A DNA stretch of 64,000 nucleotides from Candidatus Campbellbacteria bacterium (GCA_024653945.1 JANLIT010000003.1:162936-226935); one strand, 5' to 3'; numbered from the stretch's first letter, positions 2,752 through 63,303 are shown. Numbers and translations: made by a program. The notes: generated from the sequence alone by a model not told the origin.

Positions 2752-2779
2752 TCGAATCGGCGGGACTCGAACCGAGGAC
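2752..2779 (-). repeat. inverted degenerate copy of tRNA-Asp 3' end (T-arm + acceptor 3' strand)
   Basis: Reverse complement ggttcgagtcccgccgattcga matches tRNA-Asp 3' region ggttcgagtcccgtcgattccg; no intact cloverleaf (T-stem does not pair). Confidence 0.5.
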
Positions 2780-3014
2780 CGACGAAGCCCGCCGCAGGCG
2801 GCGGTCCGAGTGGGGGTCGATGGAGTGAGATTTTTGTGAGTTGTAGACAAAACAAAAATCCACGAGAGTGACCGAGTCCCTCTGAAAACTCTTTGTGACC
2901 GAGTCCCCTCCCTTGTAACCAACCCACACCTTCACGATATATATGAACGTGCGTTATACTGGTGACACCCACTTTTTATAAAGAAGCATTTTATAAATTA
3001 TTAATTATATAGAT

Positions 3015-3791
3015 ATGTATTCACAGCCAACATATTCGCGAGGTATGACAACGGGTGTTGTTGTCCTTGGTATGCTCTTGCTTGCAGGAGTTATTACCGT
3101 AGCCATTATTCGCGACAAAATTGTTGCTCAAGACTGGCAACAAGTAAGTATCACGGGAACAGGAAAAGTCCCCTACACACCCGACGAAGGTACAGTAACC
3201 CTCGGTGTGCATGTTGATAATGCAGTAACTGCACAAGCTGCACTCACACGATTGTCAGACACCATTGCAAAAGTTATTCCCGCGATCGTTGCACTTGGTA
3301 TTCCTGCAGAAGATATTTCAACACAAGCATACAATTTGTTTCCTCAATATTATTATCCTGAAGGAAAACCTGCCGTGATTAGTGGGTACAGCGCTGACCA
3401 ACAACTTTCCATCAAACTCACACTCCAAAATGGCGCCTCTGACACACGTATTGGAAAAGTTATTGAAACAGCAAGCGCACAAGGTGTAAACCAAGTTGTT
3501 GGTGTGGCGTTTACCGCATCAAATATTGAAGACCTCCAACAACAAGCGCTCCTTATTGCCATTGCAGACGCGAAAGGACGCGCGCAAGAAACCGCAGAGG
3601 CAGCGGGTGTTCGACTTAAAGAAGTTATTTCATGGTGGGAAAATCCAATTAGTGTTCCTGGCCTTGTTCCTCAGTATGGTGGAGAAATGGGTATGGGATA
3701 CGGTGGTGGAGATATGAAATCTTCCCCAATGGTTTCTTCTGGAACACAGGAAGTTATCGTGCAAGTAAACCTCAACTACTCGATAAAATAA
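3015..3791 (+). CDS. SIMPL/DUF541 family periplasmic protein (YggE-like)
   Basis: 258 aa; N-terminal TM anchor, then sequence typical of the SIMPL family (..QAYNLFPQYYYPEGKPAVISGYSADQQLSIKL..). Confidence 0.65.
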   Translation: MYSQPTYSRGMTTGVVVLGMLLLAGVITVAIIRDKIVAQDWQQVSITGTGKVPYTPDEGTVTLGVHVDNAVTAQAALTRLSDTIAKVIPAIVALGIPAEDISTQAYNLFPQYYYPEGKPAVISGYSADQQLSIKLTLQNGASDTRIGKVIETASAQGVNQVVGVAFTASNIEDLQQQALLIAIADAKGRAQETAEAAGVRLKEVISWWENPISVPGLVPQYGGEMGMGYGGGDMKSSPMVSSGTQEVIVQVNLNYSIK

Positions 3792-3837
3792 GGCTAGAAC
3801 TTGCCTTGTGCGTATCAATGCTCTATACTTCCCCACA

Positions 3838-3908
3838 GCGGGGTAGAGCAGTAGTAGCTCGTCAGGCTCATAACCTGAAGGTCGTAGGTGCAATTCCTAC
3901 CCCCGCAA
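3838..3908 (+). tRNA. tRNA-Met/Ile2 (anticodon CAU), elongator type
   Basis: GCGGGGT..GAGC AGTAGTA GCTC G TCAGG CTCATAA CCTGA AGGTC GTAGG TGCAATT CCTAC CCCCGC A; perfect anticodon stem, no GGG/CCC initiator signature. Confidence 0.75.
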
Positions 3909-3920
3909 CAAGAATAAAAA

Positions 3921-46372: not shown

Positions 46373-46460
46373 GGAGAGGTGGCAGAGCGGTCGAATGCAG
46401 CATCCTGCTAAGATGCTGACCGGGAAACTGGTCCGAGGGTTCGAATCCCTCCCTCTCCGC
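46373..46460 (+). tRNA. tRNA-Ser (anticodon GCU)
   Basis: GGAGAGG..anticodon arm GCATC CTGCTAA GATGC, long variable arm, T-arm GAGGG TTCGAAT CCCTC, acceptor CCTCTCC G. Confidence 0.85.
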
Positions 46461-48307: not shown

Positions 48308-48898
48308 CTACAGATGACTTGCTTCAAGCGCTCGATTGATTTCAACAAGTGCTTTTCGGTGTGTGGGTGCAAAAGATGAAATGTGTTCAAGAGAGAAATG
48401 ATACGGTCGAGATAGGTGTTCTGTATAAGCAGAGTCACCTTGTACATAACCCAGCTCATGCAAAATACGCAACACAAGAAGAACTTCAAACGAAGCGAGG
48501 TTGTCTTGTGTGACATCGGGACCAGCGAGGGCTGAAAGTCCATTCCACACTAAATCAAACACAACACTTCCCTGCTCTTCATCAACAACCAATCGTCGAA
48601 CTAGTTGTAAAATGCGTACTGCAAGCATTCTTTTTTGTCTATCTTCGTGTGAGAAAAAAACTGACGAGAGCGGGGTTACATTGGTAATACGCCACCCATC
48701 ACGCGAACGCACGAGTGACACATCAGAAACAGAAGAAAATTGTAAACCATACCGATGGCGTGAACGAACTTCGCGGGATGATTGACACCGTGCAAGTACC
48801 ACTCCCATATCAGATGTAAACAATCGGTACGTGCGACTCGCCTCACCAACATTGTATGCGCCGAGAACGATTGCTTTTGTGTGGTGCTTGGAATACAT
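48308..48898 (-). CDS. recO: DNA repair protein RecO (short form)
   Basis: 196 aa; N-terminal OB-fold ..KAIVLGAYNVGEASRTYRLFTSDMGVV.. and helical C-terminal domain. Confidence 0.7.
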   Translation of the reverse strand: MYSKHHTKAIVLGAYNVGEASRTYRLFTSDMGVVLARCQSSREVRSRHRYGLQFSSVSDVSLVRSRDGWRITNVTPLSSVFFSHEDRQKRMLAVRILQLVRRLVVDEEQGSVVFDLVWNGLSALAGPDVTQDNLASFEVLLVLRILHELGYVQGDSAYTEHLSRPYHFSLEHISSFAPTHRKALVEINRALEASHL

Positions 48899-49024: not shown

Positions 49025-52000
49025 TTAATGTATACTGAAAATATACAACTCTGCACCTATGTCCCCAACGGATGCCGTGAGATCTTTGAGATTGGTGGAT
49101 TTTATGAGTGCTTCTTTGTGTTCTTCAATAAGTTTTTTGCCTTCTTCATTTGTCACAACAGAAAGTGTTGGTGTGTCAGACGCGGTCAAACCTGATGTCT
49201 TTCTAAAGTCCTGAATAGCACGCATCAAATCACGCACATCACCTTCTTTTTTCAACTCGGGCGTTACCGCCGTATCAAGTTCAACATCCCAGCCCGTATC
49301 TTCTTTAAACAATACCTCTTTTACGTTTACTTCGTCGGAAATCAAAGCAACCAGTTCTGGAAATTTCTGCAGTGTGAGATTTCCTCCACGAAGCGAAAGT
49401 GATGCGAGTGGCTGACGAACCTTAATTCCCGCAGACATGCGAGCTTCAAGTGCCCGTGAAGCAACATCCCGTATCTTTTGCATGCCCGTAATAATCTTTT
49501 CTGGTTTGTTTTTTACTGTTTTGGTATACGAAGGCCACTCCTCTAGGTGCACACTTTCCAATTCACCCCCCGCTGAGCTGTACATTTCCTCAGCAAAAAA
49601 TGGAGTGAACGGCGCCATTGCTGTGGCAAGTGTTTTGAGCACGTGTCTCGTTGTTCCCAACGCATGTGCTTTATCCTCTGCATCATCTGATTTAAATCTA
49701 TCTCGTGACCGACGAATATACCACGTAGAGAAATCTTGAATAAAATCTTTAATTGCCCGCGTGGGCTCAAATGTGTGGTAGGTGTTGAGACCTTCCGTTA
49801 CTTCCGTGAGTAGTTCATCGAGTCGGCTCAAAATCCACACATCAAGTACATGCTTTGATATTTGATATTTGATATTTGATATTGGTGTCTCTTCTTTATA
49901 CATCTCATAAAACTTCACCACGTTGCGCGCAATCATAAATACCTTCTTGGATACTTCGTCCACCGTCTTTTCATCAAAGTTTTTTGTATCACCCGGCTGA
50001 TTAACGGAGTACATCCAAAAACGAATAACATCCACGCCATGTTTTGCCATCGCCTCCCATGGATTAATGACGTTCCCAATTGATTTACTCATCTTCTTAC
50101 CTTGAGCATCCAAAATGTGCCCAAGACAAATGACGTTCTCAAACGCTCGTCCCTTCCCCATGAGCACACCGACGGCGTGCAGTGTATAAAACCATCCGCG
50201 TGTTTGATCAATTGCTTCAGAAATGTACTGCGCAGGATAGCCTTTTCCATCAACCCACTTCTCGTTTTCAAACGGGTAGTGATCTTGTGCAAATGGCATT
50301 GAGCCAGAATCAAACCACACATCCATTACTTCTGGTGTGCGTTTCATCTCAAATTCGCACTTTGGACATACAACGGGCACTTCATCAATGTATGGTTTGT
50401 GTAAATCAATATCGTACGAAGCGTTGTGTGGAAGCGGCACAAAAGCAACGGGTACTGCACAAGCGAGTTCCGGATCGGGCGACGTCAGTAAATGCTCGGC
50501 CCGTTTGTCGTCGGCGCCTTCCAAAATCGCCGAAATGGTAGGAAACGCAACGCCGTGCGTTACCACGATGACGTGTGTGTGTTCATGTTGAGAATCAATG
50601 TCATACAAAAACTCTGAAAAACGACGACGTACATCCAAATAACTCTCCCCGTTTGGAAGTTTATCACCATACTTCAGTCCGTTGGTTTTTCTATACAAAT
50701 AAACGTCGTGGTGTGGTTTTGTATTGAAATCACCATACTTAAGCTCTTGTATCCGTTCGTCAACAACAACCGCATCTGCCACAAGGCCGAGTTCTTGTGC
50801 AATGATGTCGGCGGTCTCCCGTGTACGCACGAAAGGCGACGTGTAGATTTTTGTTACACCCTCTTTCTTTATTTTTCTGCTCACGTGCATGACCTGCTCC
50901 TTTCCTTTTTCGGTCAAATGGTCTGGAGCATTCGGGTCTGCACTCGCGATATCCAAAATATTATTGTTGGCCTCTCCGTGCCGAACAAAGGTAAACGTAT
51001 TTCCGCGTGATTTCGTTATTTTTTTGAGGTGCTCAATAGACCCAACCACCTCTGTGTGGTGGCAGTGTTCGCAGTTCCAGACAGGAAGTGGTGTGCCCCA
51101 GTAGCGGTCGCGAGAAAATGCCCAATCCTTCACTTCGCGTAGCCATTCTCCAAAACGTCCTTCTTTAATGTGTTCTGGTACCCAGTTAATTTTTTTGTTC
51201 TCCTTCACCAAATCATCCCTCAATTCCGACATGCGGATGTACCACGAATCACGGGCGTAATAAATCAGCGCCGTGTGGCAACGCCAGCAATGTGGGTATG
51301 GATGTTCAAATTTCTCTCTCTTAAAAAGAAGACTACTGGGCTTGCGCGCTAAAAGGTCTTTAATGACCTCAACGGCCGTGGACTCATCACGTACAAACAA
51401 ACCTTCGTATAATCCCGTACCCTTCACAAGGTGCCCTGTCTCATCAACGAGATGCCACTTTGGCAAACTAACTTTGTTACCCAATTCAAAGTCCTCCTGT
51501 CCGTACATAACCGCTGTGTGCACAATGCCCGTACCGTCTGTCGTCGTCACAAAATCTGCTGGATACACCTTATATGCATTTCCTATTTTTTCTTTTTCTG
51601 GACCAGAAATAAGGTTTTCAAGAAATGGGAAGAGTGGTTCGTAGGAGAGACCAACCAAATCTTTGCCCTTTAGTGGAGTACTCAGACCATCTTCAATATA
51701 TGGCATCCTTGTATCCTTACCCCCATATTTGAAATCACTTCCAATAGGATCAAATAGTGGGTGTTTATTATCTTCTACCGCCTTGTCAAAAATTTCTTTA
51801 GAAAGAATTAAAAACTCTCCCCGTAGAAAGATTTTTACATAATCAATGTCCTCTCCAACAGCAAGTCCGACGTTTCCTAAGAGCGTCCACGGTGTTGTTG
51901 TCCATGCGAGAAGATACGTATTTTCTTCTCCGACAACTTTAAACTTCACATACACCGAAATATCCTTCACATCTTCATACCCCTGCGCAAGTTCATGACT

Positions 52001-52582
52001 TGAAAGTGCTGTACCACAACGCGGACACCAGGGGAGGACTTTGTAATCTTTATACAAAAGATTCTGTTTGTGTACATGTGCAACAATACTCCACAATGAT
52101 TCCATGTAACTTGGATAGTACGTAACGTATGCGTCATCTAAATCAACCCAGTACCCCATACGCTGTGTAAACAAACTCCACTCGTCAATATATTTCCAGA
52201 CACTTTCTTTACACTTTTCATTAAACTGTGCGATGCCGTATTCCTCAATTTGTTTCTTTAGTGTAAAACCGAGTTGTTTTTCAACTTCAATTTCAACAGG
52301 AAGGCCGTGGGTGTCCCAACCCGCTTTTCGACGCACGTGAAAGCCGCGCATCGTTTTGTACCGAGGAATAACGTCTTTAAATGCCCGCGAAATAAGATGG
52401 TGAATTCCAGGACGGCCATTTGCCGTTGGTGGGCCTTCATAAAACACGAACTCTCCCTCTGGAGATTCTTTTGCAAGCGTTTTTTGGAAAATACCCTTTT
52501 CCTGCCAGTGTTGTAGTATTTCCTCCTCCTTTTTCGCCACATCACTTTTTTCGTACTCTTCATGTGCCATAGCAACCATCAT
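49025..52582 (-). CDS. ileS: isoleucyl-tRNA synthetase with an inserted histidine phosphatase (PGAM-like) domain
   Basis: 1185 aa; HIGH-like PPTANGRPGIHH, WTTTPWTL, KMSKS (GKKMSKSIGNV); ~180-aa insertion between the Zn-knuckle (..PLPVWNCEHCHH..) and ..DVWFDSGS.. carrying RHGE (FVRHGEANNN), SPFVRTRETA and VIVVTHG histidine-phosphatase motifs. Confidence 0.85.
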   Translation of the reverse strand: MMVAMAHEEYEKSDVAKKEEEILQHWQEKGIFQKTLAKESPEGEFVFYEGPPTANGRPGIHHLISRAFKDVIPRYKTMRGFHVRRKAGWDTHGLPVEIEVEKQLGFTLKKQIEEYGIAQFNEKCKESVWKYIDEWSLFTQRMGYWVDLDDAYVTYYPSYMESLWSIVAHVHKQNLLYKDYKVLPWCPRCGTALSSHELAQGYEDVKDISVYVKFKVVGEENTYLLAWTTTPWTLLGNVGLAVGEDIDYVKIFLRGEFLILSKEIFDKAVEDNKHPLFDPIGSDFKYGGKDTRMPYIEDGLSTPLKGKDLVGLSYEPLFPFLENLISGPEKEKIGNAYKVYPADFVTTTDGTGIVHTAVMYGQEDFELGNKVSLPKWHLVDETGHLVKGTGLYEGLFVRDESTAVEVIKDLLARKPSSLLFKREKFEHPYPHCWRCHTALIYYARDSWYIRMSELRDDLVKENKKINWVPEHIKEGRFGEWLREVKDWAFSRDRYWGTPLPVWNCEHCHHTEVVGSIEHLKKITKSRGNTFTFVRHGEANNNILDIASADPNAPDHLTEKGKEQVMHVSRKIKKEGVTKIYTSPFVRTRETADIIAQELGLVADAVVVDERIQELKYGDFNTKPHHDVYLYRKTNGLKYGDKLPNGESYLDVRRRFSEFLYDIDSQHEHTHVIVVTHGVAFPTISAILEGADDKRAEHLLTSPDPELACAVPVAFVPLPHNASYDIDLHKPYIDEVPVVCPKCEFEMKRTPEVMDVWFDSGSMPFAQDHYPFENEKWVDGKGYPAQYISEAIDQTRGWFYTLHAVGVLMGKGRAFENVICLGHILDAQGKKMSKSIGNVINPWEAMAKHGVDVIRFWMYSVNQPGDTKNFDEKTVDEVSKKVFMIARNVVKFYEMYKEETPISNIKYQISKHVLDVWILSRLDELLTEVTEGLNTYHTFEPTRAIKDFIQDFSTWYIRRSRDRFKSDDAEDKAHALGTTRHVLKTLATAMAPFTPFFAEEMYSSAGGELESVHLEEWPSYTKTVKNKPEKIITGMQKIRDVASRALEARMSAGIKVRQPLASLSLRGGNLTLQKFPELVALISDEVNVKEVLFKEDTGWDVELDTAVTPELKKEGDVRDLMRAIQDFRKTSGLTASDTPTLSVVTNEEGKKLIEEHKEALIKSTNLKDLTASVGDIGAELYIFSIH

Positions 52583-52628: not shown

Positions 52629-53528
52629 CTAATCCTTCTTTGGAAAATGTTTTGTGTGTACCCCTTTTTTGATTGTTTCAAGAATGCGGTCAACACCCTC
52701 TACAGAAGTTGAGAGCTCTTTAATTACTCCGCGTAATACAGTCTCTTGGTCTGGGGTAATGTTTTCACGAGATGCAATGTCTCCTATTTTTGGCAATACA
52801 TCTGTCAGCGGTAATCTAACGTATTCAGTAAGAAGAGATGCGGTGTTGGCGTGTGAAGTGAGTATTTCTTTTTCTTTTCTGCGAACACGAAGGCCTGTGT
52901 ATACGATGATAAACATGATAAATGTGAGAAGTGCTGGAGTAGCAGTGCCAAATAAGACATGCGTGTAAAACATCCGTGCGTCTATGTATACACCAAGTCC
53001 CGCCACAACCTTTCCATTTTCATCTTTGATTGGTGCAATACCCGCTACCCACGTTCCCCACCGGTCTTCTTTTGGACCCTCAGTAAAAGGCAGACCTGTT
53101 TGAAATAGTTTCTCAAATTGTATTGTTGCCTCTGGATATTTGTCCCCCGGTGGTGAGTAGTCCGGCGAGGCGGGGTCCTCAGAATCTAAATAGATGAAAA
53201 CATTTTCATTTTTATTACCAAAAATATAGACGAACCTCACATCCTCATTAACACTCCGTATTTTTTGTAAACGTGCCTTTAAATTTATATATACTGGACT
53301 GGCAAGGTCACTGGCGTCCCCTTTCAGAGAAAGAATGTCCGAAACGTCAATACTTGCCGCTATCGTCTCTGCACGACTGTACAAAGATATGAATTCTGAA
53401 TACCAATACAACCGGAGCGCGAGAAGGGTTCCAAGAACTCCGACACAAAGAATGGCGACGAGAACGCCACGGTGAATCGCGTGAAGCGAGCTAATCCGTT
53501 TTTTGTTTTGTAATGTATTCATATACAA
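52629..53528 (-). CDS. two-TM membrane protein with extracytoplasmic sensor-like domain (no output domain)
   Basis: 299 aa; TM near N-terminus and at ~200, extracytoplasmic domain between. Confidence 0.4.
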   Translation of the reverse strand: MYMNTLQNKKRISSLHAIHRGVLVAILCVGVLGTLLALRLYWYSEFISLYSRAETIAASIDVSDILSLKGDASDLASPVYINLKARLQKIRSVNEDVRFVYIFGNKNENVFIYLDSEDPASPDYSPPGDKYPEATIQFEKLFQTGLPFTEGPKEDRWGTWVAGIAPIKDENGKVVAGLGVYIDARMFYTHVLFGTATPALLTFIMFIIVYTGLRVRRKEKEILTSHANTASLLTEYVRLPLTDVLPKIGDIASRENITPDQETVLRGVIKELSTSVEGVDRILETIKKGVHTKHFPKKD

Positions 53529-53531
53529 CTA

Positions 53532-54629
53532 TTATGAACCACTTTTTGTTGGTTCTTTATAATTTTCATGGTCGTGTTCGTACACACGGCGAAGTAATAT
53601 CATTTCAAACACGAGAAGTCCGACGACACCAAGAATGAGGAGAATAATCACCATTAAGAGCATCTCTGGAATACCGATACCCCCCACTGTTACCTCAAAC
53701 GCCTGCGTCGGTGGTGTTTCTACACCTTCCACAACCGCTCCAAGCCAAAATTGATACGGAATACCCCGCAGTGATCCACCCAGACCCGAAAGCACCGTTG
53801 CCTGCAAAAGAGGCACGAGATTCTTCGTTGAACCATACCGATATGAAAAGTTGCCCGCCTCATCACTTGCTATAGTGTACTGTTTTGGGTCACCACTTGA
53901 AAGTTTAAGCCAGATATTAACTTTCGCATTTGGATATGTTACTCCTTGTACAAAGAAATCTGCCAGATTTTTCGGACGGTTTGTATATCCCGTAATCACC
54001 GGTGGACGAAGTGAGCTAAGTACTAATGAAGATTGGTCCAGTGGGAGCTCTGTCTTTCCATCGGTGCCACGAACAATGGGAGATGAAATACCTGAAATTT
54101 CATATCGCGCATCAGCGAGCGTTTCCAAAATATTTGTTCCAAATCCGTCATTGGCAAGTGTCAGTCCTGAAGAAAAAGCGATGACCGGCGAACCCGTTCC
54201 TAACACCTCAAAGTACACAGTCAATACTTTTCCACGCCCAGAAAAACCAGGATTTAACACCAATCCTTCAAATGAAATTTCCGACCTCTCCGCAGAAATA
54301 CTTGGCTGTTGTATCCAGAGCGTTACAATTGAATCGTTCTTTTTTACTGATGTGGGTTTTACCACTCCTTCCGGAAACTCTAGTGTCCCTGAAATCGCAT
54401 TTATTGTTTTGCCGTCAGTATCAACAATAACGTCAACGGGGATAATTGACCCAACTGCGTACGTTCCACTGCTTGGGTTAAGAAACAACGACGAAGCACG
54501 CGCCATAGAAACTGGTGTGAGAACACTAAACAGAAGAAATAATATTGGGAGAATACTAATTATTCTCGAATCTTTTTGTCCGAGAGAGCCTTGCATAGCG
54601 ATGATGTTTGCGTCGGATGAAGACCACAA
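53532..54629 (-). CDS. secreted beta-rich protein with C-terminal TM anchor (paralog of 54556..55446; candidate cohesin-like)
   Basis: 365 aa; signal peptide, ..DTDGKTINAISGTLEFP.. module, C-terminal hydrophobic anchor. Confidence 0.4.
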   Translation of the reverse strand: MWSSSDANIIAMQGSLGQKDSRIISILPILFLLFSVLTPVSMARASSLFLNPSSGTYAVGSIIPVDVIVDTDGKTINAISGTLEFPEGVVKPTSVKKNDSIVTLWIQQPSISAERSEISFEGLVLNPGFSGRGKVLTVYFEVLGTGSPVIAFSSGLTLANDGFGTNILETLADARYEISGISSPIVRGTDGKTELPLDQSSLVLSSLRPPVITGYTNRPKNLADFFVQGVTYPNAKVNIWLKLSSGDPKQYTIASDEAGNFSYRYGSTKNLVPLLQATVLSGLGGSLRGIPYQFWLGAVVEGVETPPTQAFEVTVGGIGIPEMLLMVIILLILGVVGLLVFEMILLRRVYEHDHENYKEPTKSGS

Positions 54630-55446
54630 TCAATAATAACACTAGTGCTAGAAATACCAGAGTATACAGTGAGCGTTCAAGGGGAGAACGCAGATCCCCG
54701 TCATACCGCACAATAGTGCTATTTCCTGCGTTGTCATACGCCCGCACAAAAATATACTTCGTTTTTGTATCGGAAAGAACAAATGGGCTCTGTGCGAGAG
54801 TCCACAATAACTCGCTCGGTGTATCGTTCTCTGTTTCTTGTACTTCGTAGTAGCTCATACCACTCTGTTCATCGTGTGTTGCAAAAATAACAACCCGTTT
54901 TCCTTCAAACGACGCGTCGTCTTCAACAAGCACGATTGAAAAAGACTCTGGCGGTGTAGTGTCAGGTACAGTCACAGTGATTGGTTCGTTTCCGATACGC
55001 GTAACAATATCAATAGTGTTTTCTTGCACGCGTGCTTTTTGAGCCGTCCCTTCCCCGTCGTGAAGAAATACCGTGAATGTAGGAACACGTAGAGACGCAA
55101 CACCCTCACGAACTCCCGTTACCTCTATTTGGGCGATGATTCCCTTCCCTATAAAACCACCTGGAATAATCCCAGAAAAATGAACAATCCCCTCTTTGAT
55201 TGATGGTGTCTCCGTCCAAAAACTAATAACAGAGTTCGCATCTTGCACACTGTTAATAGTGAGAAATTCTTGAGGTAGTGCGACATCACCCTCAATAGTG
55301 TTTATCTGCTCTCCTTCTGTATCAAGAGAAACGGAGATTAATTGTGTGCCTCCTACAAAAACCGAACCAGTTGACTCAATAGTAACAACTGTTGCCGAAG
55401 CAAGAAGTGGACTGAGAAGAAAAATAAGTGTAAGAAGTGATTTCAT
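54556..55446 (-). CDS. secreted beta-rich protein with C-terminal TM anchor (paralog of 53532..54629)
   Basis: 296 aa; signal peptide, ..DTEGEQINTIEGDVALP.. module, C-terminal anchor; overlaps the neighbouring ORF by ~70 bp (alternative starts possible). Confidence 0.4.
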   Translation of the reverse strand: MKSLLTLIFLLSPLLASATVVTIESTGSVFVGGTQLISVSLDTEGEQINTIEGDVALPQEFLTINSVQDANSVISFWTETPSIKEGIVHFSGIIPGGFIGKGIIAQIEVTGVREGVASLRVPTFTVFLHDGEGTAQKARVQENTIDIVTRIGNEPITVTVPDTTPPESFSIVLVEDDASFEGKRVVIFATHDEQSGMSYYEVQETENDTPSELLWTLAQSPFVLSDTKTKYIFVRAYDNAGNSTIVRYDGDLRSPLERSLYTLVFLALVLLLIVVFIRRKHHRYARLSRTKRFENN

Positions 55447-55455
55447 ATTATAGGA

Positions 55456-56736
55456 TTATCCTGTCCAGAAGAATGTGAGAATACTAAAGTCCGCAAGTGT
55501 AATTTCTCCGTCACTATTTAAATCAAACCGTGCTGGCACATTTTCTCTGTCATGCCAGTACGCAAGTATTGAAAAATCGGTCAGATTGACACGACCATTG
55601 TTATTAAAATCACCTCGGAGTACACGTGGTCCGTACTCATCAACAAATTTTAGCGCAACACCAAATGGACTTCGCATATCCCCTACCGCCGCGAGTGAGC
55701 GTAATGTTGTTTGCACTTGTGTAAGAAATTCCTTTGAGAAAAAGAATTCATAGAATCCTGTGTTTGAAGCAGTTGCGGTGCGTGTCTCTGCCCCTGCACC
55801 ACCTCGAGTAATGGTCACCACAACCACTGAGTTTGGAAGTGTTGAACCAACAACGCGCACCGTGGACGTATCGTCAGTTTTTTCAAATGAAATAGTGGGA
55901 GGAAGAAAAATTCCCTGTAATGACACGAGTAACCGCCGTGTATAAAAAACAACTGGAAATGAAAGCACTCCTGATTTTACCCCCTCATTATCAACTCCGT
56001 AGAGTGTCATGTTGTATGAGCCAAACGGTATATCGCTCAATGTGATGAGAAATGTTCCGTTGTTAGCAACAGGTATCTCTCCAACTCGTACGCCATCACG
56101 GAGAACAAACACTGTTCCGTCTGGATGTGCAAACCCACCAATAGAAAGGGTTCCTGATGTTGCAGTTTGCACGGTGCCACTTGTCCCACCATCATCATCG
56201 TCACCAGGCTCAGGCGGACTCCCTGGTATTGCAAGACTTGCTGGCGACGACGTGCCGATTGCATTTCCAAATGCGTCGTTCACCACCGTTACAAAGTAGT
56301 ACGTGGTGCCAAGTGTAAGTCCTGTTGAAGTTGCCACAAGGTCTGTTCCAACAGGTGTGTATGAGTACGGCCCAGAAGAGTTTGTGCCAATACCGTGCGT
56401 ATAACTCCCCACACTCCACCCGAGGTATGCCTGCGCAGGAGTCCATGTCACCACAGCTGTGGAAGTTCCCACCAATGACGCCGTTAAAACCGGAGTTGTA
56501 ACGAAAGGAAAATATAAAAATCCAGAGCGAACCTCGTAGAGAGCAGATGTACTTGTTGCAATTGCGGGTTGCGACACACTTCCCCACAATCCAAAGCTCG
56601 TTGATGTACCATACCCGCTTGAGAACATCACCGGATCAAGAACACGATAGCTTGGTGATGTGTACTCATCTGCACGCACAAAAACTGCTGTAAATATCGT
56701 TCCACACAAAAGAAAAATGAAGAAAAACCTTTTCAC
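55456..56736 (-). CDS. secreted protein with C-terminal type I dockerin domain
   Basis: 426 aa; signal peptide; C-terminus GDFNNNGRVNLTDFSIL..DLNSDGEITLADFSIL = two dockerin Ca-binding repeats. Confidence 0.6.
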   Translation of the reverse strand: MKRFFFIFLLCGTIFTAVFVRADEYTSPSYRVLDPVMFSSGYGTSTSFGLWGSVSQPAIATSTSALYEVRSGFLYFPFVTTPVLTASLVGTSTAVVTWTPAQAYLGWSVGSYTHGIGTNSSGPYSYTPVGTDLVATSTGLTLGTTYYFVTVVNDAFGNAIGTSSPASLAIPGSPPEPGDDDDGGTSGTVQTATSGTLSIGGFAHPDGTVFVLRDGVRVGEIPVANNGTFLITLSDIPFGSYNMTLYGVDNEGVKSGVLSFPVVFYTRRLLVSLQGIFLPPTISFEKTDDTSTVRVVGSTLPNSVVVVTITRGGAGAETRTATASNTGFYEFFFSKEFLTQVQTTLRSLAAVGDMRSPFGVALKFVDEYGPRVLRGDFNNNGRVNLTDFSILAYWHDRENVPARFDLNSDGEITLADFSILTFFWTG

Positions 56737-57928: not shown

Positions 57929-58921
57929 TTAGTCTTGGCCATACTGTCTTTCTATCTCTTTATAAACAAATGTGGAGATGTCTTTAATTGCAGAAATAAG
58001 TTCTTGTGGATTTTCTCCACGAGTCATAATGCAGAGCATGTAAGGGTGATCTGGGAAGTAGACAACGCCACAATCATGGAATTGTTGGATATCATTAGTA
58101 ATTTTTCGCTCCCCAAATTTATGGGCAACGGTGATCTCCTCTGGAACTCCTGCACGAATTCCGCCTGTAAACGTGGTTTCGGTGAGTAATTTTAGGGCGT
58201 ACTCAGAGTGCGTCCGAGACAAAAAAGATGCATTAAAAAGAATGCGAAAAAAAATACTATAACGTCTCACTGAAAGTACTGCTTTTGGATCTGTAATAAG
58301 ACTGACATCAATACCAACCAATCGAAAGAGATCTTCCTGATATTTGCTTGGTAGACGATTATAGAGAAGGAGGAGGGCTTGGTTATCAGAATATCTAACC
58401 ATATTCTCAATGAGATCTTTCGCTGAGTACGTTTTTCCAATTTCAAGAGGGACAAGCGGAGCAAATTCTTGAGTAAATCCTAAGTCCATAGGTGTCTCAT
58501 ACAGAATCCTTTCTTCAAGTACATCTGGTTCATCTTCAGACCACTTAAGATATGCAATCATGACAGGAACCTTAAGAAGACTTGCTGGAGCATAGAGCTC
58601 CTGTTGATTTACACCAATCACAGGGCCGTTGTTTAAATCGCGGAAGTATACAGCGATATCGGAGATATTTGTTGATTCCTTTAATTCTTCAACAAAATCT
58701 TCCAGCTCTGGAGTAAAGTCCTCTTTACGAGAAGTGATTGTGGACACAGCAATCTCACACTCAAGAAGTGGGTTTGTAAGTTTTCCTCCCAAACGAAGTT
58801 CTGAGGAGAAATCGCTTAATTCTCTATTTGGAATAGTTTTTGAAATGTTACCCACAAAAAAACCAAGCACAAATAGAAGTACTCCACCAAGGTACATGAG
58901 GCTAATATTTGTTTTTTTCAC
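57929..58921 (-). CDS. serine hydrolase of the beta-lactamase/penicillin-binding fold (class A-like)
   Basis: 330 aa; N-terminal TM; S-x-x-K (ASLLK), SDN (RYSDNQA) and KTG-like (HKFGER) motifs. Confidence 0.55.
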   Translation of the reverse strand: MKKTNISLMYLGGVLLFVLGFFVGNISKTIPNRELSDFSSELRLGGKLTNPLLECEIAVSTITSRKEDFTPELEDFVEELKESTNISDIAVYFRDLNNGPVIGVNQQELYAPASLLKVPVMIAYLKWSEDEPDVLEERILYETPMDLGFTQEFAPLVPLEIGKTYSAKDLIENMVRYSDNQALLLLYNRLPSKYQEDLFRLVGIDVSLITDPKAVLSVRRYSIFFRILFNASFLSRTHSEYALKLLTETTFTGGIRAGVPEEITVAHKFGERKITNDIQQFHDCGVVYFPDHPYMLCIMTRGENPQELISAIKDISTFVYKEIERQYGQD

Positions 58922-58989: not shown

Positions 58990-61900
58990 CTAGATTTCAG
59001 ACTCAGGTTCGGGAGTAGGCTCTGGTTCAGGTTCTGTGACAGGTTCCTCATCGGGAGTGGGTCCTGGAGTTAGTTCGGGTTCAGGTGTTGGTTCCGGCTC
59101 GGGTTCGGACTCGGGAAGAACTTCAGGATCTGGGTCAGGAATTACCTCAGGGTCTGGCACAACTTCGGGTTCAGGGATTATTTCAGGGTCTGGCTCGGGA
59201 AGAACTTCTGGTTCAGGTTCTGAGACAGGTTCTGAGACAGGTTCTTCCTCTGGTGCTGGTTCGGGTAGAACAATCTCGCCCAATCCTTCAGATTCAATCG
59301 TTCGCGCCCCTTTCACCGCAAGAGCTATCCAGTTGAACATTATGTCTTCCTCGGCTGGTTTGTTGAGGATAATAGTGAATCCTGTTGTAGACGCAGTATC
59401 AATAAGGAATCGTACGTCATTTCCAAAGAACGCTTGAATAACGGCCGCGCTCGCACCGTCTCCAGCTGAAATTCCATCAGATGTTGACATACTTGCGTTC
59501 ACCACCGGTTTCTCAAGATACTCTCTCTCGAATGGAATGTACACCTCGGAATCACCTTCCTGTATTATAGCGAATCCGGCAGTATCCGTTGTAAAGTACG
59601 GAGTTCCAAAGAAGATGACATCCGATTCAAAAAGTACCTGATCATTGAGTGCCGACACTGTATCGACAGTCAAACCTTCTGTAATGACATGTGGTGTGTA
59701 GATTTCAAACGCCGCAACAAGTCGGTCGGTAAATATCTCAGAATCAAGCTCTATGTCTCCACCTATACGTGCATCCTTAAGATATTCAAGGATTTGATGT
59801 GCCCCATCTTCTTCATCTTCATCATTAAGAATCTGCCCGGGTGTTGTTGTCGCGACTGTTTCAACAAGTGTAAACCCTTCGTTGCAAAGCCCATCGGCAT
59901 TTGTGCTCGTTGCTGTGCCAGTTTCATCAACACATGATGCAACAACCGCCGGTTCACCGACCACAAGACCTTCCTCCATCTCACTCATAAGAACAGACAG
60001 TGACATACCTGAGTAGTCAACGAGGTTGACGAAGACAAGTACCTGTCCACACTGTTTGCTTCCCTCTTCTGCATCAGGACAATCAACACGCATCTCAGGT
60101 GTAAAGTCCTCCATCACAACTCCAAGTACCCTGCCAGCCTTTGTTGCACGCATACCATATCCAGCACGTGATGATGTCGTAATACGATCCCCTGCTTTAA
60201 TTGAGCCGTTTTCAAGCGAAACGTTCACTGGCACACGACCGACAAGTGCAACAGGAAATGTATTTTCTGTCTGGGGACCGAGGATAATTCCAGGGTATGT
60301 TGCAACAACACCAATAACATCTCGTTGATATGTCTCCGTTGATGCCTTGACTCCGTTCGGAATTGCAGTATCAAGCCCAACGATTGTACCTGCTGTAAGT
60401 GCTTCTTGTGATGGATAGTACTCAGCAAGGTCAGCACCTCCGAGAAATCCTCCTTCTGGGGTTGTTCCAAGAAGTCCGTCCACCAAAAGCTCCATCGCAA
60501 TTGAGTTCAAGTTGTTGTTGATGAGGTCAATGGTTTGTTCAAGACTTTGATCCACTTTTTCAAGCCACAAGTGCTGTAGTGAGCCAATAGCAAGTGTTCC
60601 GTTAACTGCACCAATCGCCGTAACATCATCCGCGTCTCCCGCTGACCATGCAACCCCCGCATCAGTCGTCTTTCCTGCGTTTCCATGATATACATCTGTC
60701 ACATATGTATTTCCATACCCTTGGAACACGGTAACACCACCAACGTCCGAGCCATTACTTGTTCCCACATACATTTGTCGCATTTTTCCAATAAACGCGT
60801 TCTCAAAGACGGAAATTGACGTAACAGAGTCTGTGCCACCATAGAGTTGTTCTGGAATAACTTCAAAGTCTGATGTTGCATCAGGCGTTGTCGTCCATGC
60901 TGGAGAGACAGTAAGTGTTGTTGCGGTATTCGAGATGACCCGACGAGTTTGGTCAACACCAGTGTTTCCCGTAATCTCAACCAAACTCCCTGCAAACTGA
61001 TTAGGAGTCCACCCAGCACCTGTCTTTCCAATAGTTGTTCCAGAGAAGATATCTCCGTCTGTTTGGCGAGTTGAACTTCGTGATAATGCCTGCCTACCAG
61101 CAGCGTATTTACGTTTTACCTGTGCTTGTATGAGCGAACTGTCGGTTGTGGCGGCGGCGGCTGCAAAGTACACATCATCAATTTCTCCTGCCCAGAAGTC
61201 TGCTCCGGCCGCACCACCACCGTCGGCGCCAATAAAAAGAGGCTGTGAGGCGTCAAGAGTAAGTGTCGCTGCAAGTGTCGCATCACAGGCTACTGCAAGA
61301 CGGCCATCAATATACAGACAGATGGAGATGTCTGTGTTGACCGCCACAAGGTGGTGCCATTGGCCATCCGCGTAATCAAGCGTTGATATGACAGAGTCGT
61401 CGTATCCCGCCGTTGCCGCTGTGTCTTGAATACCATACACAATCTGTCCAGATGTATTCATTTCAACTCGATATCCAATACCCTCCGTACCGTTTAATGC
61501 GGTGTATCGCCTATCAACAAGCACATCGTTCGTGGTAACGGGATTTGTCGCGGAGTGCTTGAACCACAATTCAATCGTGGATGAGAGCAAACCGACGTTA
61601 AAGTCCGCGTCCGTGTCGCAGGTACCGTCATTGTTTGCATCAGAACACAGGTAATCACTCGTTCCATTGAATGAAAGACCTGTTCCGTACACACCGTCAA
61701 CACTATATGTTGGTGGGTCTTCCGCCTCAAGGATACTGTTTCGTATCGTGGAGTCTGTAAGGTCACCTGTTGTTTCATCAAAACCAAAGTATCCACGCGG
61801 TGTTCCTGACATATACCCTGTTTCACGGCTCGTTGAATAGAATTTTGACCATCCTATGTTTGTTGCACTCACCACTGCAATGTCATGAATTTGAGTCAAC

Positions 61901-63303
61901 CCTTGGCTGTGTCCAACAAACAAAACCTCTCCTTTTCCTGTTGTCTCAAGAATATCAGCATACGATTCACGCTCAAGAACCCAGAATGCATCGGGGTTTG
62001 TTGAAAATGTTGGAGCTGTCTTAAAGGCATGCGGTGTGTTTGCCGCCTGTTCATCCCAAATATCATTTGGTGCGTTGTCAATTGCGGTCGCGACTTCAAT
62101 ATCATCATAACGCTCAATTTCAGCAAGTGTCTCGTTAGTGAGATACAAACGTCCTCTCTTTGTGACCCATACTTGGTTTGTGTCGTCAGTAGCGGCACCG
62201 TCAGCGTAGCGAATAACTCTTCCTGCTGAAAGGTTAATGAGTGCCACCGATTGATCTGTTGCAGCGGCAATGAAGGTATTACCGTTCACCGCCAAGTTCA
62301 CACCACCTGTTGAACCTGATATGACAGCCCCGTGGACATCGTTAACAATGTTGTCTGTAATTGATAGATCAGTAATGGCATTTGTTGCATACGTAATAGC
62401 AGTGTTTCTCTTGGCTATGTCTTGATCGCCTTGTGTTCGGTCAACAGAGTCATAGTTAAAGAGTCGGTCTTGGAAGAAATCAAAAGCATACAGACCAGTA
62501 CCGCCCGTACCGTTTGTACCAACATACACAACACCATTGAGTGCAAAGACACCAGACGGGTTGTTGTTTGTGTCGGTTCCAAGGGCAAACGTACCACCCG
62601 TTTGTGTAAATCGCATCCACATGATATTTGTCATTGCATCAAAGATGTAGACATCAGTTGGCGTGGAAACGATAACCGCCTTTTTCGGGAATGAGGACGT
62701 TCCACAACGATCATCTGTTGTGGGAACACAAGGATCCCCAATTGCATCGTCCTTCGCTTCTATGTACCAGCTTTTTCCTATTGCCAAAAGATCGTTGGTC
62801 CATTTACCGGCATCGCTGTCCCTCGTTGTGTCGTATACGAATATCGAGTTAATCGTAGGAATTGATGTACTTGCGGTAAATCCTTTTTTGATGATTTCAC
62901 CGTACACCTCAATATCTGCGCGTGTTGTTTGGCTTCCCACATCCACAGCACCATTTTCCGCAACTGAGAAGAGGTCAGAACCCGCATCATCTTCAATAAG
63001 GAGCGGATACCCCGTCACTTGCGACTGGTCAACGAGAATATGAAGTCCATTACCTGTATTCGCGTTTGCATCCACAGCATCCATGGTGATTTGAAGAGCA
63101 TCCCCTGAAAACGTACCTCCCGTTGCTGAGTTTGCGGTAAGCTGCAACAAATCATGCGTCATTGCTGAACCTGCGGTTTCGGTAATCACAACAGGTGTCG
63201 CTGCCGCTGTCTCAATTGTTGCACCCGTATCGTATGCAGTCTGTAAACTACCCCCCCTCCAGCTGATGATGTTGCTGCGGCTATCCATGCTCCAGCACTC
63301 CAC
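58990..63303 (-). CDS. giant secreted surface protein with LamG domain and C-terminal Pro/Glu-rich (PEPE/PxPE) repeats
   Basis: 1437 aa; LamG-like ..[33 protein letters not shown]..; C-terminal [21 protein letters not shown].. repeats. Confidence 0.6.

What the first reader, a model, noticed from the sequence alone, without database searches (positions are those of the whole stretch)
49025..52582. Isoleucyl-tRNA synthetase carrying an inserted histidine-phosphatase (PGAM-like) domain
All IleRS hallmarks are present (HIGH-like PPTANGRPGIHH, WTTTPWTL, KMSKS, Zn knuckle). A ~180-aa insertion between the Zn knuckle and DVWFDSGS contains RHGE (FVRHGEANNN), SPFVRTRETA and the C-terminal catalytic His segment VIVVTHG. 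These are the defining motifs of the histidine phosphatase (phosphoglycerate mutase/SixA) superfamily, not of an intein. A phosphatase domain embedded in a class I aaRS catalytic core is, to my knowledge, not described. It could act on a phosphorylated small molecule or protein, or be an editing or regulatory add-on.
Basis: partly seen in the sequence, partly recalled or inferred. Interest (0 to 1): 0.7.

Follow-up and report, generated by a model that had tools for sequence, protein, structure and literature searches.

The report
Isoleucyl-tRNA synthetase with nested phosphatase
This gene from a tiny uncultured bacterium (Candidate Phyla Radiation) encodes the enzyme that loads isoleucine onto tRNA with a complete, apparently active phosphatase enzyme inserted into one of its surface loops; this pairing is conserved across the whole bacterial group, sits unremarked in public databases, and I found no paper that describes or explains it.

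Summary
ORF 49025..52582 (-), 1185 aa, is a complete type-2 IleRS (TIGR00392 845 bits, cut-off 621). It carries a complete histidine-phosphatase domain (Pfam His_Phos_1, E=1.9e-30). About 197 aa (residues 522-718) replace a roughly 3-residue loop at the tip of a CxxC...CxxC zinc knuckle, 33 residues before the second half of the Rossmann fold.

It is not an artefact and not a one-off. The protein is already in NCBI (Ca. Campbellbacteria MAG, "class I tRNA ligase family protein"). About 200 clusters at 50% identity share the architecture. All 21 insert-bearing species-representative loci are Patescibacteria or unclassified, apart from one MAG labelled Gammaproteobacteria. None of 59 non-CPR type-2 ileS loci has the domain.

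The catalytic Arg-His...Arg...Glu...His set is essentially invariant in 153 copies that are only about 35-45% identical overall. AlphaFold2 gives a discrete, confident domain closest to small-molecule phosphatases (PhoE, PspA, CobC).

New here: in one CPR clade the same phosphatase is a separate gene 3-58 nt upstream of an insert-less ileS. Other relatives carry 2-4 copies at three different sites, and one is a ValRS. So the phosphatase is a selected partner of IleRS. Its substrate is unknown. I found no paper describing it. Verdict: a real, widespread, uncharacterised variant of aaRS domain accretion.

The parts
49025..52582 (-). ileS ORF, 1185 aa: type-2 isoleucyl-tRNA synthetase with a nested histidine phosphatase
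   Evidence: ORF list. TIGR00392 ileS 844.9 bits, cut-off 621.4. Pfam tRNA-synt_1, His_Phos_1, Anticodon_1 and DUF5915. 100% identical to NCBI protein P0154 from a Ca. Campbellbacteria MAG.
52397..52408 (-). Class I signature motif in the swapped form G59-I60-H61-H62 (GxHH rather than HxGH)
   Evidence: Sequence. It aligns to 'PGVHH' of the 8c8w hyper-resistant HIGH-motif mutant. For the meaning of GXHH see PMC10485003.
51881..51904 (-). WTTTPWTL threonine-rich motif of the CP1 editing domain (aa 227-234)
   Evidence: W227-L234, H355 and D364 are invariant in the 59-sequence alignment A2.
51275..52027 (-). First four-cysteine site, bracketing CP1: CPRCG (aa 186-190, 52013-52027) and CWRCH (aa 432-436, 51275-51289)
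   Evidence: C186, C432 and C435 are invariant and C189 nearly invariant in A2.
51062..51073 (-). N-terminal half of the zinc knuckle, C504-x-x-C507 (WNCEHCHH)
   Evidence: It aligns to 'CEGC' of PmIleRS2.
50429..51019 (-). The insertion proper, aa 522-718 (about 197 aa), absent from insert-less IleRS2
   Evidence: Alignment gap against 8c8w: query 521->719 corresponds to chain 476->480. Also absent from the CPR insert-less IleRS of L081. pLDDT blocks 83-97.
50492..50992 (-). Pfam His_Phos_1 match, aa 531-697
   Evidence: E=1.9e-30, 106.4 bits. Best PDB sequence match is PhoE 1EBB/1H2E at 57 bits. Foldseek TM 0.77 to 1H2E.
50975..50983 (-). R534-H535-G536: the RHG motif carrying the presumed nucleophilic histidine
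   Evidence: R and H are 153/153 invariant in embedded copies. They align with the RHG motif of PhoE.
50825..50827 (-). R586, second phosphate-binding arginine
   Evidence: 152/153 conserved.
50744..50746 (-). E613, presumed general acid
   Evidence: 143 Glu and 9 Asp of 153.
50555..50557 (-). H676, second catalytic histidine (VTHG)
   Evidence: 153/153 invariant.
50357..50368 (-). C-terminal half of the zinc knuckle, C739-x-x-C742 (CPKCE)
   Evidence: It aligns to 'CPVC' of PmIleRS2.
50300..50323 (-). DVWFDSGS: start of the second half of the Rossmann (HUP) core
   Evidence: The PmIleRS2 core resumes at residue 513 (PMC10485003).
50081..50095 (-). KMSKS loop (aa 830-834)
   Evidence: K830-K833 are invariant in A2.
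49409..49843 (-). Anticodon-binding domain (Pfam Anticodon_1, aa 914-1058)
   Evidence: E=3.4e-29.
49088..49327 (-). Type-2 C-terminal domain (DUF5915, aa 1086-1165)
   Evidence: E=2.3e-14.
48308..48898 (-). recO-like gene immediately downstream. It is a conserved neighbour of ileS in both the inserted and the split forms.
   Evidence: RecO_N E=5e-8. The same ileS->recO order is seen in L081, L082 and the P0284 contig.

Best explanation
The gene encodes a bifunctional protein. One part is a complete type-2 isoleucyl-tRNA synthetase of a Patescibacteria (Ca. Campbellbacteria) bacterium. The other is a complete, catalytically competent PhoE-like histidine phosphatase nested at the tip of the zinc-knuckle hairpin of the connective peptide, just before the second half of the Rossmann fold. 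The phosphatase folds as a separate globular domain and leaves the synthetase core, editing domain and anticodon-binding domains intact. The pairing is a selected, lineage-wide trait of the Candidate Phyla Radiation. Most lineages carry the domain inside IleRS, sometimes in 2-4 copies or at other loops, and one clade encodes it as a separate gene directly upstream of an insert-less ileS. I therefore infer that the phosphatase works together with IleRS as a tethered or co-expressed partner. It probably hydrolyses a small phosphomonoester, most likely a nucleotide-type substrate (a nucleoside monophosphate, or a 2'/3'-phosphate on a nucleotide or tRNA end), near the aminoacylation machinery, and does not act in amino-acid editing. 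Shown: identity, boundaries, conservation of the catalytic residues, discrete fold, taxonomic spread, split/inserted complementarity. Inferred: actual phosphatase activity, functional coupling to IleRS, substrate class. Unknown: the substrate.
For: The domain is complete and closest to small-molecule phosphatases: PhoE 57 bits; insert-only model pLDDT 90.1, with Foldseek best matches PspA, PhoE (TM 0.77), GpgP, CobC and HFP, and no protein phosphatase in the top 50. Purifying selection on catalysis is clear: R534, H535, S582 and H676 are 153/153, R586 is 152/153, E613 is 143 Glu plus 9 Asp, and E646 is 152/153, in copies only about 35-45% identical. The full-length model shows a discrete folded excursion (pLDDT 87.3, pTM 0.79, insert blocks 83-97), and the IleRS scaffold superposes on PmIleRS2 at TMt 0.81. 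The IleRS hallmarks, including the editing motif, are invariant in relatives. It is not an artefact and it is widespread: 202 representatives at E<=1e-30, 107 of which cover flank, insert and flank in one stretch; all 120 best full-length hits carry PF00300. 21 of 21 insert-bearing GTDB loci carry the domain inside ileS, and all are Patescibacteria or unclassified apart from one MAG labelled Gammaproteobacteria; 0 of 59 non-CPR type-2 ileS loci have a copy within +-6 kb. Linkage beyond fusion: the closest standalone relatives (P0001 family, 167-187 bits to the family HMM) lie 3-58 nt upstream of an insert-less ileS (948-1011 aa) followed by recO, in 3 contexts plus 1 truncated one. No locus has both an inserted and an adjacent copy. 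Recurrence: copies occur at three sites, there are tandem pairs conserved as orthologues, one ValRS has four copies, and inserts occur in both deep IleRS2 branches.
Against: The multiple insertion sites and variable copy number argue against a fixed geometry or substrate channelling. The closest characterised relatives are metabolic phosphatases with no connection to translation, and none of their NCBIfam equivalog cut-offs is reached, so the substrate class is a guess. Fusions of His_Phos domains to unrelated enzymes exist, for example the bifunctional RNase H/acid phosphatase NF005567, so physical linkage does not prove functional coupling. The split-form contexts all come from one clade, 64-75% identical to P0001, so they represent one evolutionary event. 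The NJ tree is rough and has no support values.
Confidence: 0.6

Rival explanations
1. Fusion of convenience. The domain is an ordinary metabolic phosphatase or mutase (phosphoglycerate mutase, phosphoserine phosphatase, alpha-ribazole phosphatase or a broad-specificity PhoE). It has lodged in a permissive loop of an essential, constitutively expressed gene in these reduced genomes. It gains co-expression from this but has no mechanistic link to isoleucylation.
For: The best family and structure matches are metabolic enzymes: dPGM_arch 86.5 bits, CobC 71 bits and PspA 63 bits; PhoE, PspA, GpgP and CobC by fold. Fusions of His_Phos to unrelated enzymes are known as a family (NF005567). Variable insertion sites suggest that geometry relative to IleRS does not matter.
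Against: All curated equivalog cut-offs are missed by a wide margin. The host is almost exclusively IleRS, with one ValRS, among the top 150 of 1.84 billion representatives. Insertion or duplication recurs at three sites and in two deep IleRS branches. 2-4 diverged copies in one protein are hard to explain by the need for a single metabolic enzyme. When the gene is not inserted, it stays directly upstream of ileS.
Confidence: 0.25
2. Non-catalytic module. The His_Phos fold has been co-opted as a phosphate-binding or RNA-binding appendage (for example gripping a tRNA backbone or 5'-phosphate) or as an allosteric metabolite sensor. It would bind a ligand without turning it over.
For: aaRS commonly acquire extra tRNA-binding modules, for example the INS subdomain of IleRS2 that contacts the D-loop (10.64898/2026.02.03.703510). 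The insertion sites all lie in or next to the catalytic domain.
Against: The full catalytic set, including the nucleophilic His and the general-acid Glu, is conserved in 153 copies. That level of conservation is more than ligand binding alone usually requires. The standalone split form is a normal-looking enzyme of about 205 aa.
Confidence: 0.08
3. Guard or repair module. The tethered phosphatase removes a blocking phosphate from the translation apparatus itself. The target could be a 2'/3'-phosphate on a damaged tRNA 3' end, or a phosphate placed on IleRS by a toxin kinase. The GNAT and HD inserts in relatives would be parallel protective modules.
For: The domain is specifically and repeatedly recruited to IleRS and ValRS and retained as an operon partner. 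Relatives also carry other small hydrolase or transferase domains: GNAT in P0094 and P0051, and HD in P0220. From my own knowledge, not tested here: the HD domain of E. coli CCA-adding enzyme has 2',3'-cyclic phosphodiesterase and phosphatase activity, and HipA-type kinases inactivate aaRS by phosphorylation.
Against: The structural neighbours are small-molecule phosphatases, not protein or RNA phosphatases. There is no PADLOC defence-family match. Nothing explains why IleRS in particular would need this. The idea is entirely inferential.
Confidence: 0.07
4. Artefact or selfish insert. The apparent insertion would be a chimeric assembly, a frameshift-merged pair of genes, an intein or another mobile element.
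For: None found. Relative P0051 does carry an IS200-like Y1_Tnp domain in frame in CP1, which shows that mobile-element-derived sequence can end up inside these genes.
Against: The ORF is continuous, with IleRS sequence on both sides. The same in-frame architecture appears on hundreds of independent contigs from NCBI, JGI, ENA and Logan. There is no Hint, intein or endonuclease domain. Copies are anciently diverged, at about 35-45% identity, yet keep their catalytic residues. The fold is confident.
Confidence: 0.01

Closest known systems
Type-2 isoleucyl-tRNA synthetase (IleRS2), e.g. Priestia megaterium IleRS2 (PDB 8C8U/8C8V/8C8W/8C9D) and Thermus thermophilus IleRS (1ILE)
   Same: Same enzyme family and domain order. 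Scores are 781 bits to 8c8w and 737 bits to 1ile, and the model superposes at TMt 0.81-0.88. It has the GxHH form of the signature motif, KMSKS, the CP1 editing motif, both four-cysteine sites, Anticodon_1 and the type-2 C-terminal domain.
   Different: It carries about 197 extra residues forming a histidine-phosphatase domain where the solved enzymes have a loop of about 3 residues. No solved IleRS contains this domain; the best TMq is only 0.72. It also has an extra low-confidence loop of about 30 aa in CP1.
PhoE/YhfR broad-specificity phosphatase of Geobacillus stearothermophilus (1EBB, 1H2E), and the related PspA, CobC and GpgP small-molecule phosphatases of His_Phos branch 1
   Same: Same fold and same catalytic residues (RHG, Arg, Glu, His). 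Best sequence match in the PDB is 57 bits, and Foldseek gives TM 0.70-0.77 at 20-26% identity.
   Different: Those enzymes are free-standing. This one is nested inside another enzyme, or in the split form is encoded immediately upstream of it. None of the curated equivalog cut-offs is reached, so the substrate cannot be transferred from them.
NCBIfam NF040702 'isoleucine--tRNA ligase, N-acetyltransferase domain-containing' (ileS_w_GNAT)
   Same: It is a recognised precedent for an unrelated enzyme domain embedded in IleRS. Relatives of the window protein (P0094, P0051) carry GNAT domains as well as His_Phos.
   Different: The window protein has no GNAT domain and scores 278.6 against a cut-off of 1999. 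NCBIfam gave no dedicated model for the His_Phos-containing form in my scan. NCBI names these proteins only 'class I tRNA ligase family protein'.
Bifunctional RNase H / acid phosphatase (NF005567, Rv2228c-type)
   Same: A His_Phos (CobC-like) domain is covalently joined to a nucleic-acid enzyme. The insert matches the phosphatase half at 64.6 bits.
   Different: That protein is an end-to-end fusion, not a nested insertion. The partner enzyme is different, and the cut-off of 326 is not reached.
Known idiosyncratic insertions of class Ia synthetases (CP1 editing domain, the INS subdomain of IleRS2, the leucine-specific domain of LeuRS)
   Same: The principle is the same: a discrete module is nested in a loop of a class I aaRS without disrupting the core (PMC10485003 and 10.64898/2026.02.03.703510).
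   Different: Those modules serve editing or tRNA binding and are aaRS-specific folds. Here the module is a member of a large independent enzyme superfamily with its own complete active site.

Membership tests
Isoleucyl-tRNA synthetase (TIGR00392 ileS equivalog; type 2) | Whole-protein score above the curated cut-off | tested here: met
   844.9 bits against a cut-off of 621.4, in two stretches split by the insert.
Isoleucyl-tRNA synthetase (TIGR00392 ileS equivalog; type 2) | Class I signature motifs HxGH (or the IleRS2 variant GxHH) and KMSKS | tested here: met
   G59-I-H-H62 and K830-M-S-K-S834. GXHH is a functional natural variant in IleRS2 (PMC10485003).
Isoleucyl-tRNA synthetase (TIGR00392 ileS equivalog; type 2) | CP1 editing domain with the threonine-rich motif and conserved His/Asp | tested here: met
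   WTTTPWTL at 227-234; H355 and D364 are invariant among 59 relatives.
Isoleucyl-tRNA synthetase (TIGR00392 ileS equivalog; type 2) | Anticodon-binding domain and type-2 C-terminal domain | tested here: met
   Anticodon_1 E=3.4e-29 and DUF5915 E=2.3e-14. The model superposes on full-length PmIleRS2.
Isoleucyl-tRNA synthetase (TIGR00392 ileS equivalog; type 2) | Isoleucylation of tRNA-Ile | not testable with these tools
   Requires an enzyme assay.
Histidine phosphatase superfamily, branch 1 (Pfam PF00300) | Score above the Pfam gathering threshold over most of the profile | tested here: met
   106.4 bits against 21.7, profile positions 2-168 of 194.
Histidine phosphatase superfamily, branch 1 (Pfam PF00300) | Catalytic RHG histidine, two arginines, general-acid Glu/Asp and second histidine | tested here: met
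   R534, H535, R586, E613 and H676 align to the corresponding PhoE residues and are invariant or nearly so in 153 copies.
Histidine phosphatase superfamily, branch 1 (Pfam PF00300) | The alpha/beta fold of the superfamily | tested here: met
   Insert-only AF2 model has pLDDT 90.1, and Foldseek gives TM 0.77 to 1H2E with probability 1.00.
Histidine phosphatase superfamily, branch 1 (Pfam PF00300) | Phosphomonoesterase or mutase activity through a phospho-histidine intermediate | not testable with these tools
   Requires an enzyme assay.
Cofactor-dependent phosphoglycerate mutase (NF038349 dPGM_arch and other dPGM equivalogs) | Score above the curated cut-off | tested here: not met
   86.5 bits against 225. 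Other dPGM models score lower: GpmB 63.1 against 261, PRK01295 35.2 against 316.
Alpha-ribazole phosphatase CobC (TIGR03162) / phosphoserine phosphatase PspA (NF045917) / SixA (TIGR00249) | Score above the curated cut-off | tested here: not met
   71.3 against 162.9, 63.2 against 350 and 31.9 against 74.5. A genuinely CobC-like standalone relative (P0289) sits next to cobS/cobU rather than ileS.
Intein | Hint/intein splicing domain, with or without a homing endonuclease | tested here: not met
   No such Pfam family at E<=0.01. The insert is fully accounted for by the His_Phos fold.
IleRS with embedded GNAT (NF040702) and mupirocin-resistance IleRS MupA/MupB (NF000257/NF000258) | Score above the curated 'exception' cut-off | tested here: not met
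   278.6 against 1999, 757.4 against 1900 and 744.8 against 1900.

The most novel reading that the evidence does not exclude
The IleRS-tethered histidine phosphatase performs a previously unknown step in tRNA-Ile charging or its protection that is specific to the Candidate Phyla Radiation. For example, it could remove a blocking 2'/3'-phosphate from the tRNA acceptor end, or reverse an inhibitory phosphorylation of the synthetase. It is important enough to be kept either inside the enzyme or as its immediate operon partner across a whole superphylum, and to have been inserted repeatedly at different loops and into ValRS. The GNAT and HD inserts in relatives would be parallel accessory chemistries on the same platform.
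Probability: 0.15. Interest if true: 0.85.

Novelty: new variant of a known kind. Interest (0 to 1): 0.6.

Why it matters
Aminoacyl-tRNA synthetases are among the most conserved enzymes known, and their accessory domains usually reveal extra requirements of translation such as editing, tRNA recognition or regulation. Here an independent enzyme with an intact active site is nested in the catalytic region of an essential class I synthetase. The pairing is maintained across the Patescibacteria, a group comprising a large share of bacterial diversity whose biology is mostly inferred from genomes. The pattern of inserted versus adjacent gene, the repeated insertions at several loops and the multi-copy variants all indicate selection for keeping this phosphatase with IleRS, yet no known feature of isoleucylation needs a phosphatase. 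Finding the substrate could uncover a new link between translation and phosphate or nucleotide metabolism, or a new tRNA or synthetase maintenance activity. On the practical side, these proteins are currently annotated only as 'class I tRNA ligase family protein', so the bifunctionality is invisible in genome annotations and in metabolic reconstructions of CPR organisms.

Tried and rejected
- **Artefact or intein:** rejected; see the rival explanations.
- **Other His_Phos copies in the 64-kb window:** none found by six-frame hmmsearch with a family HMM.
- **Regulatory RNA near ileS:** Rfam at gathering thresholds found only the five tRNAs.
- **Defence-system link:** PADLOC gave nothing meaningful for the insert, the split-form phosphatase or the two unannotated neighbours.
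- **Word-index search with the insert alone:** only 3 hits. The exhaustive search was needed.
- **More distant standalone relatives as functional clues:** P0289 is CobC-like (next to cobS/cobU) and P0290 sits next to a pseudouridine synthase in what look like non-CPR contigs. Neither bears on IleRS.
- **Recent intragenic duplication as the source of multi-copy proteins:** rejected, because copies within one protein are only 33-36% identical, and tandem pairs are conserved as orthologous pairs (54% and 41-42%).
- **Geometry of the phosphatase site relative to the synthetic, editing and tRNA sites:** could not be measured, because model coordinates are not exposed.
- **AlphaFold database search for the same architecture:** library unavailable.
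- **Organism names for the odd relatives:** not provided by the cluster look-up.
- **Literature:** nine full-text searches and targeted reading of two IleRS papers found no description.
- **'GN' linker motif:** my regex test for this motif upstream of RHG was poorly defined (57 of 152), so I do not rely on it.

Full report
**1. What is in the sequence**

ORF 49025..52582 on the minus strand is uninterrupted and encodes 1185 aa. Pfam finds tRNA-synt_1 (E=8e-116, in two stretches), His_Phos_1 at aa 531-697 (E=1.9e-30, 106 bits against a gathering score of 21.7), Anticodon_1 and DUF5915. No intein-type family is found. NCBIfam places the protein in the ileS equivalog TIGR00392 (844.9 bits, cut-off 621.4). 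The best phosphatase-family models (archaeal dPGM, CobC, PspA, GpmB, SixA) all fall far below their cut-offs.

**2. Where exactly the insert sits**

Against the solved type-2 IleRS of Priestia megaterium (8c8w, 781 bits), the alignment stops at query 521/chain 476 and resumes at query 719/chain 480. So residues 522-718 (about 197 aa, window 50429..51019) replace a loop of about three residues. The insert lies between the two halves of a four-cysteine knuckle. These are C504/C507 (WNCEHCHH) and C739/C742 (CPKCE), which correspond to CEGC and CPVC in the reference. According to PMC10485003, the second half of the catalytic HUP core of PmIleRS2 starts at residue 513. The insertion point is thus in the connective-peptide region, about 33 residues before the core resumes at DVWFDSGS.

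**3. Is the IleRS intact?**

The signature motif is present in the swapped GxHH form (G59-I-H-H62), together with KMSKS, the WTTTPWTL editing motif, the conserved H355 and D364, and both cysteine sites. These positions are invariant or nearly invariant in an alignment of 59 full-length relatives. The AlphaFold2 model (59-sequence alignment) has mean pLDDT 87.3 and pTM 0.79. Its scaffold superposes on PmIleRS2 (TMt 0.81), T. thermophilus IleRS (0.88) and the yeast IleRS-tRNA complexes. No solved structure contains the extra domain.

**4. Is the phosphatase intact?**

The closest solved sequence relative of the insert is the broad-specificity phosphatase PhoE/YhfR (1EBB/1H2E, 57 bits). The RHG, Arg, Glu and His catalytic residues align.

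In 153 nearly complete embedded copies collected from the exhaustive search, conservation is as follows:

| Residue | Conservation |
|---|---|
| R534, H535, S582, H676 | 153/153 |
| R586 | 152/153 |
| E613 | 143 Glu + 9 Asp |
| E646 | 152/153 |
| N541 | 138/153 |

The copies are only about 35-45% identical overall. That is strong purifying selection on catalysis.

A separate model of aa 516-721 has pLDDT 90.1 and pTM 0.87. Its best Foldseek matches are PspA, PhoE (TM 0.77), mycobacterial hydrolases, GpgP, the riboflavin-pathway HFP and CobC. All are small-molecule phosphomonoesterases, and no protein phosphatase appears in the top 50. In the full-length model the insert blocks have pLDDT 83-97, so it is a discrete, well-folded excursion.

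**5. Not an artefact, not a one-off**

The identical protein is in NCBI as 'class I tRNA ligase family protein [Candidatus Campbellbacteria bacterium]' on a 228-kb contig. All 120 best full-length hits (53-80% identity; NCBI, JGI, ENA, Logan) carry PF00300. Where named, they come from Campbellbacteria, Paceibacterota, Nomurabacteria, Taylorbacteria, Parcubacteria or 'Patescibacteria group'.

An exhaustive HMMER search of 1.84 billion representatives with flank-insert-flank (aa 481-782) returned 202 proteins at E<=1e-30. In 107 of the top hits, one alignment stretch covers both IleRS flanks and the insert.

In GTDB species representatives, 21 loci have the long form, and all carry the domain inside ileS. 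They include Saccharibacteria, Paceibacteria, Yanofskybacteria, Spechtbacterales, Minisyncoccia and Peregrinibacteria/Peribacteria. One MAG is labelled Gammaproteobacteria and several are labelled only 'bacterium'. The 59 other retained loci are insert-less type-2 ileS of Firmicutes, Cloacimonadota and others, and none has a copy within +-6 kb.

**6. The family is more elaborate than the finding suggested**

Most copies sit at the same site as in the window (site A). Others lie between D-W-F-E-S-G and DQTRGWF (site B; P0101, P0149). Others lie between the end of the catalytic domain and the start of the anticodon-binding domain (site C; P0104, P0128, P0138, P0149, P0117).

Peregrinibacteria/Peribacteria and related proteins have two tandem copies at site A that are conserved as orthologous pairs. 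P0061 is a ValRS N-terminal half followed by four copies. Copies within one protein are only 33-36% identical, so these are old events.

Relatives also carry GNAT domains (P0094, P0051), a C-terminal HD domain (P0220) and an in-frame IS200-like Y1_Tnp domain (P0051).

Among 229 site-A proteins, 133 keep both cysteine pairs, 66 have neither and 30 have only one. The zinc site is therefore dispensable, while the hairpin and the insert are kept.

**7. The split form**

The closest standalone relative of the insert (P0001, 204 aa, 37% identity, 183 bits to the family HMM) ends 3 nt before the ATG of an insert-less ileS (1011 aa). That ileS aligns to the window protein on both sides of the insertion point and is followed by recO, the same ileS-recO order as in the window.

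Relatives of P0001 (55-75% identical to it) show the same phosphatase-ileS-recO arrangement in two further contigs. In a fourth contig the downstream gene, 12 nt away, is cut by the contig end.

No locus has both an inserted and an adjacent copy. These contexts come from one clade, so this is one evolutionary event. It still shows that the association survives when the covalent nesting does not.

In a rough NJ tree of the IleRS core (His_Phos masked, 896 columns, no support values), the split-form enzymes nest inside an insert-bearing clade. The C-terminal tails of the split-form phosphatases (F-x-F-x-P-x-x-V-N-x-D-F-E) resemble the junction that follows the embedded domain (F-x-P-L-P-H-N-x-x-Y-E-L-D-L-H). 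Both observations suggest that the split form derives from an inserted one. This step is an inference.

The same tree places insert-bearing enzymes in both deep IleRS2 branches (PPFATG..HxGH and PPTANG..GxHH/HxGH). It places P0104, which has only the site-C copy, with the insert-less non-CPR enzymes. That implies more than one gain or transfer.

**8. How it most likely works**

- Shown: a complete IleRS, a complete phosphatase with a conserved active site, a discrete fold, lineage-wide conservation, and complementarity of the split and inserted forms.
- Inferred: the protein is bifunctional, and the phosphatase is a selected partner of IleRS rather than a passenger. I put about 0.6 on functional coupling and about 0.25 on a metabolic 'fusion of convenience'.
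- Substrate: the structural neighbours point to a small phosphomonoester. A nucleotide-type substrate or a phosphorylated tRNA end would make sense of the association, but nothing here tests that.
- Geometry: the multiplicity of sites and copies argues against tight channelling with the synthetic site.
- Editing: a role in amino-acid editing has no support. The CP1 editing site is intact, and histidine phosphatases act on phosphomonoesters, not aminoacyl esters (the latter point is established knowledge of the superfamily).

**9. Comparison with what is known**

The scaffold is a bona fide IleRS2 and the insert is a bona fide His_Phos branch-1 domain. It is not a member of the dPGM, CobC, PspA or SixA equivalogs, nor of the GNAT-containing IleRS exception family. 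Precedents for the principle exist: the CP1 and INS modules, NF040702, and the RNase H/acid phosphatase fusion. I found none for a histidine phosphatase nested in a class I synthetase. Nine full-text searches found nothing relevant, and two recent IleRS structure and evolution papers do not mention it. The sequences themselves have been public for years with automatic domain annotation.

**10. Verdict**

It is not peculiar to this genome. It is the normal state of IleRS in much of the Patescibacteria, and it is an uncharacterised variant of aaRS domain accretion. Linkage evidence is good that the phosphatase belongs with IleRS, but the substrate is unknown. Interest 0.6; novelty: new variant of a known kind.

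Noticed in passing
window 52397..52408 (-), aa 59-62: The class I signature motif is G-I-H-H (GxHH), not HxGH. PMC10485003 reports that this swapped motif occurs naturally only in IleRS2 and confers hyper-resistance to mupirocin. Most close relatives share it (A2 consensus 'RPGIHH'), whereas the other CPR IleRS branch has canonical HYGH.
   Followed up: partly
L081 5299-9569; L082 6001-10198; contigs of P0284 and P0281: Split form of the system. A standalone His_Phos gene of the same family lies 3-58 nt upstream of an insert-less ileS (948-1011 aa), followed by recO, within a conserved tmk-argS-pif1 neighbourhood.
   Followed up: yes
relatives P0101, P0149, P0104, P0128, P0138, P0117, P0134, P0103, P0142; loci L018-L021: His_Phos copies occur at two further sites in IleRS (after DxWFESG, and before the anticodon-binding domain). 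Tandem double copies occur at the zinc-knuckle site and are conserved as orthologous pairs in Peregrinibacteria/Peribacteria-type enzymes.
   Followed up: partly
relative P0061 (1161 aa, ENA, 3.9-kb contig): A ValRS N-terminal half (NF004349, 411 bits) is followed by four diverged His_Phos copies, so the module is not strictly limited to IleRS. The protein is probably truncated by the contig end, and only one representative was seen.
   Followed up: partly
relatives P0094, P0051, P0220: Other enzyme domains are nested in or appended to CPR-type IleRS alongside His_Phos: two GNAT acetyltransferase inserts (P0094, found on contigs up to 2.1 Mb), a GNAT plus an in-frame IS200-like Y1_Tnp domain in CP1 (P0051), and a C-terminal HD domain (P0220).
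   Followed up: partly
window 51674..51772 (-), aa 271-303: An extra segment of about 30 aa in the CP1 region does not align to PmIleRS2, and AlphaFold2 predicts residues 280-299 with pLDDT below 50. It is probably a disordered lineage-specific loop.
   Followed up: no
P0154 and other NCBI entries: NCBI names these proteins 'class I tRNA ligase family protein' or 'hypothetical protein', although they exceed the ileS equivalog cut-off in my scan. The phosphatase domain is not reflected in the product name, which leaves an annotation gap for CPR genomes.
   Followed up: no
window 79..3909 and 46373..46460: Five tRNA genes are present: Thr(CGT), Met(CAT) twice, Asp(GTC) and Ser(GCT). One of the two CAT tRNAs could be the initiator or a tRNA-Ile2 that needs lysidine. 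I did not examine this.
   Followed up: no
window 52629..56736 (-) and 58990..63303 (-): Upstream of ileS is a run of ORFs with no Pfam match (299, 365 and 296 aa, with hydrophobic N- or C-termini), followed by a 426-aa protein with Big_6 and dockerin-like segments, a beta-lactamase-family protein (57929..58921) and a 1437-aa ORF. This may be a cell-surface gene cluster.
   Followed up: no
229 site-A relatives: The zinc-knuckle cysteines flanking the insert are facultative: both pairs are present in 133 proteins, absent in 66 and partial in 30, while the insert is retained in all.
   Followed up: yes
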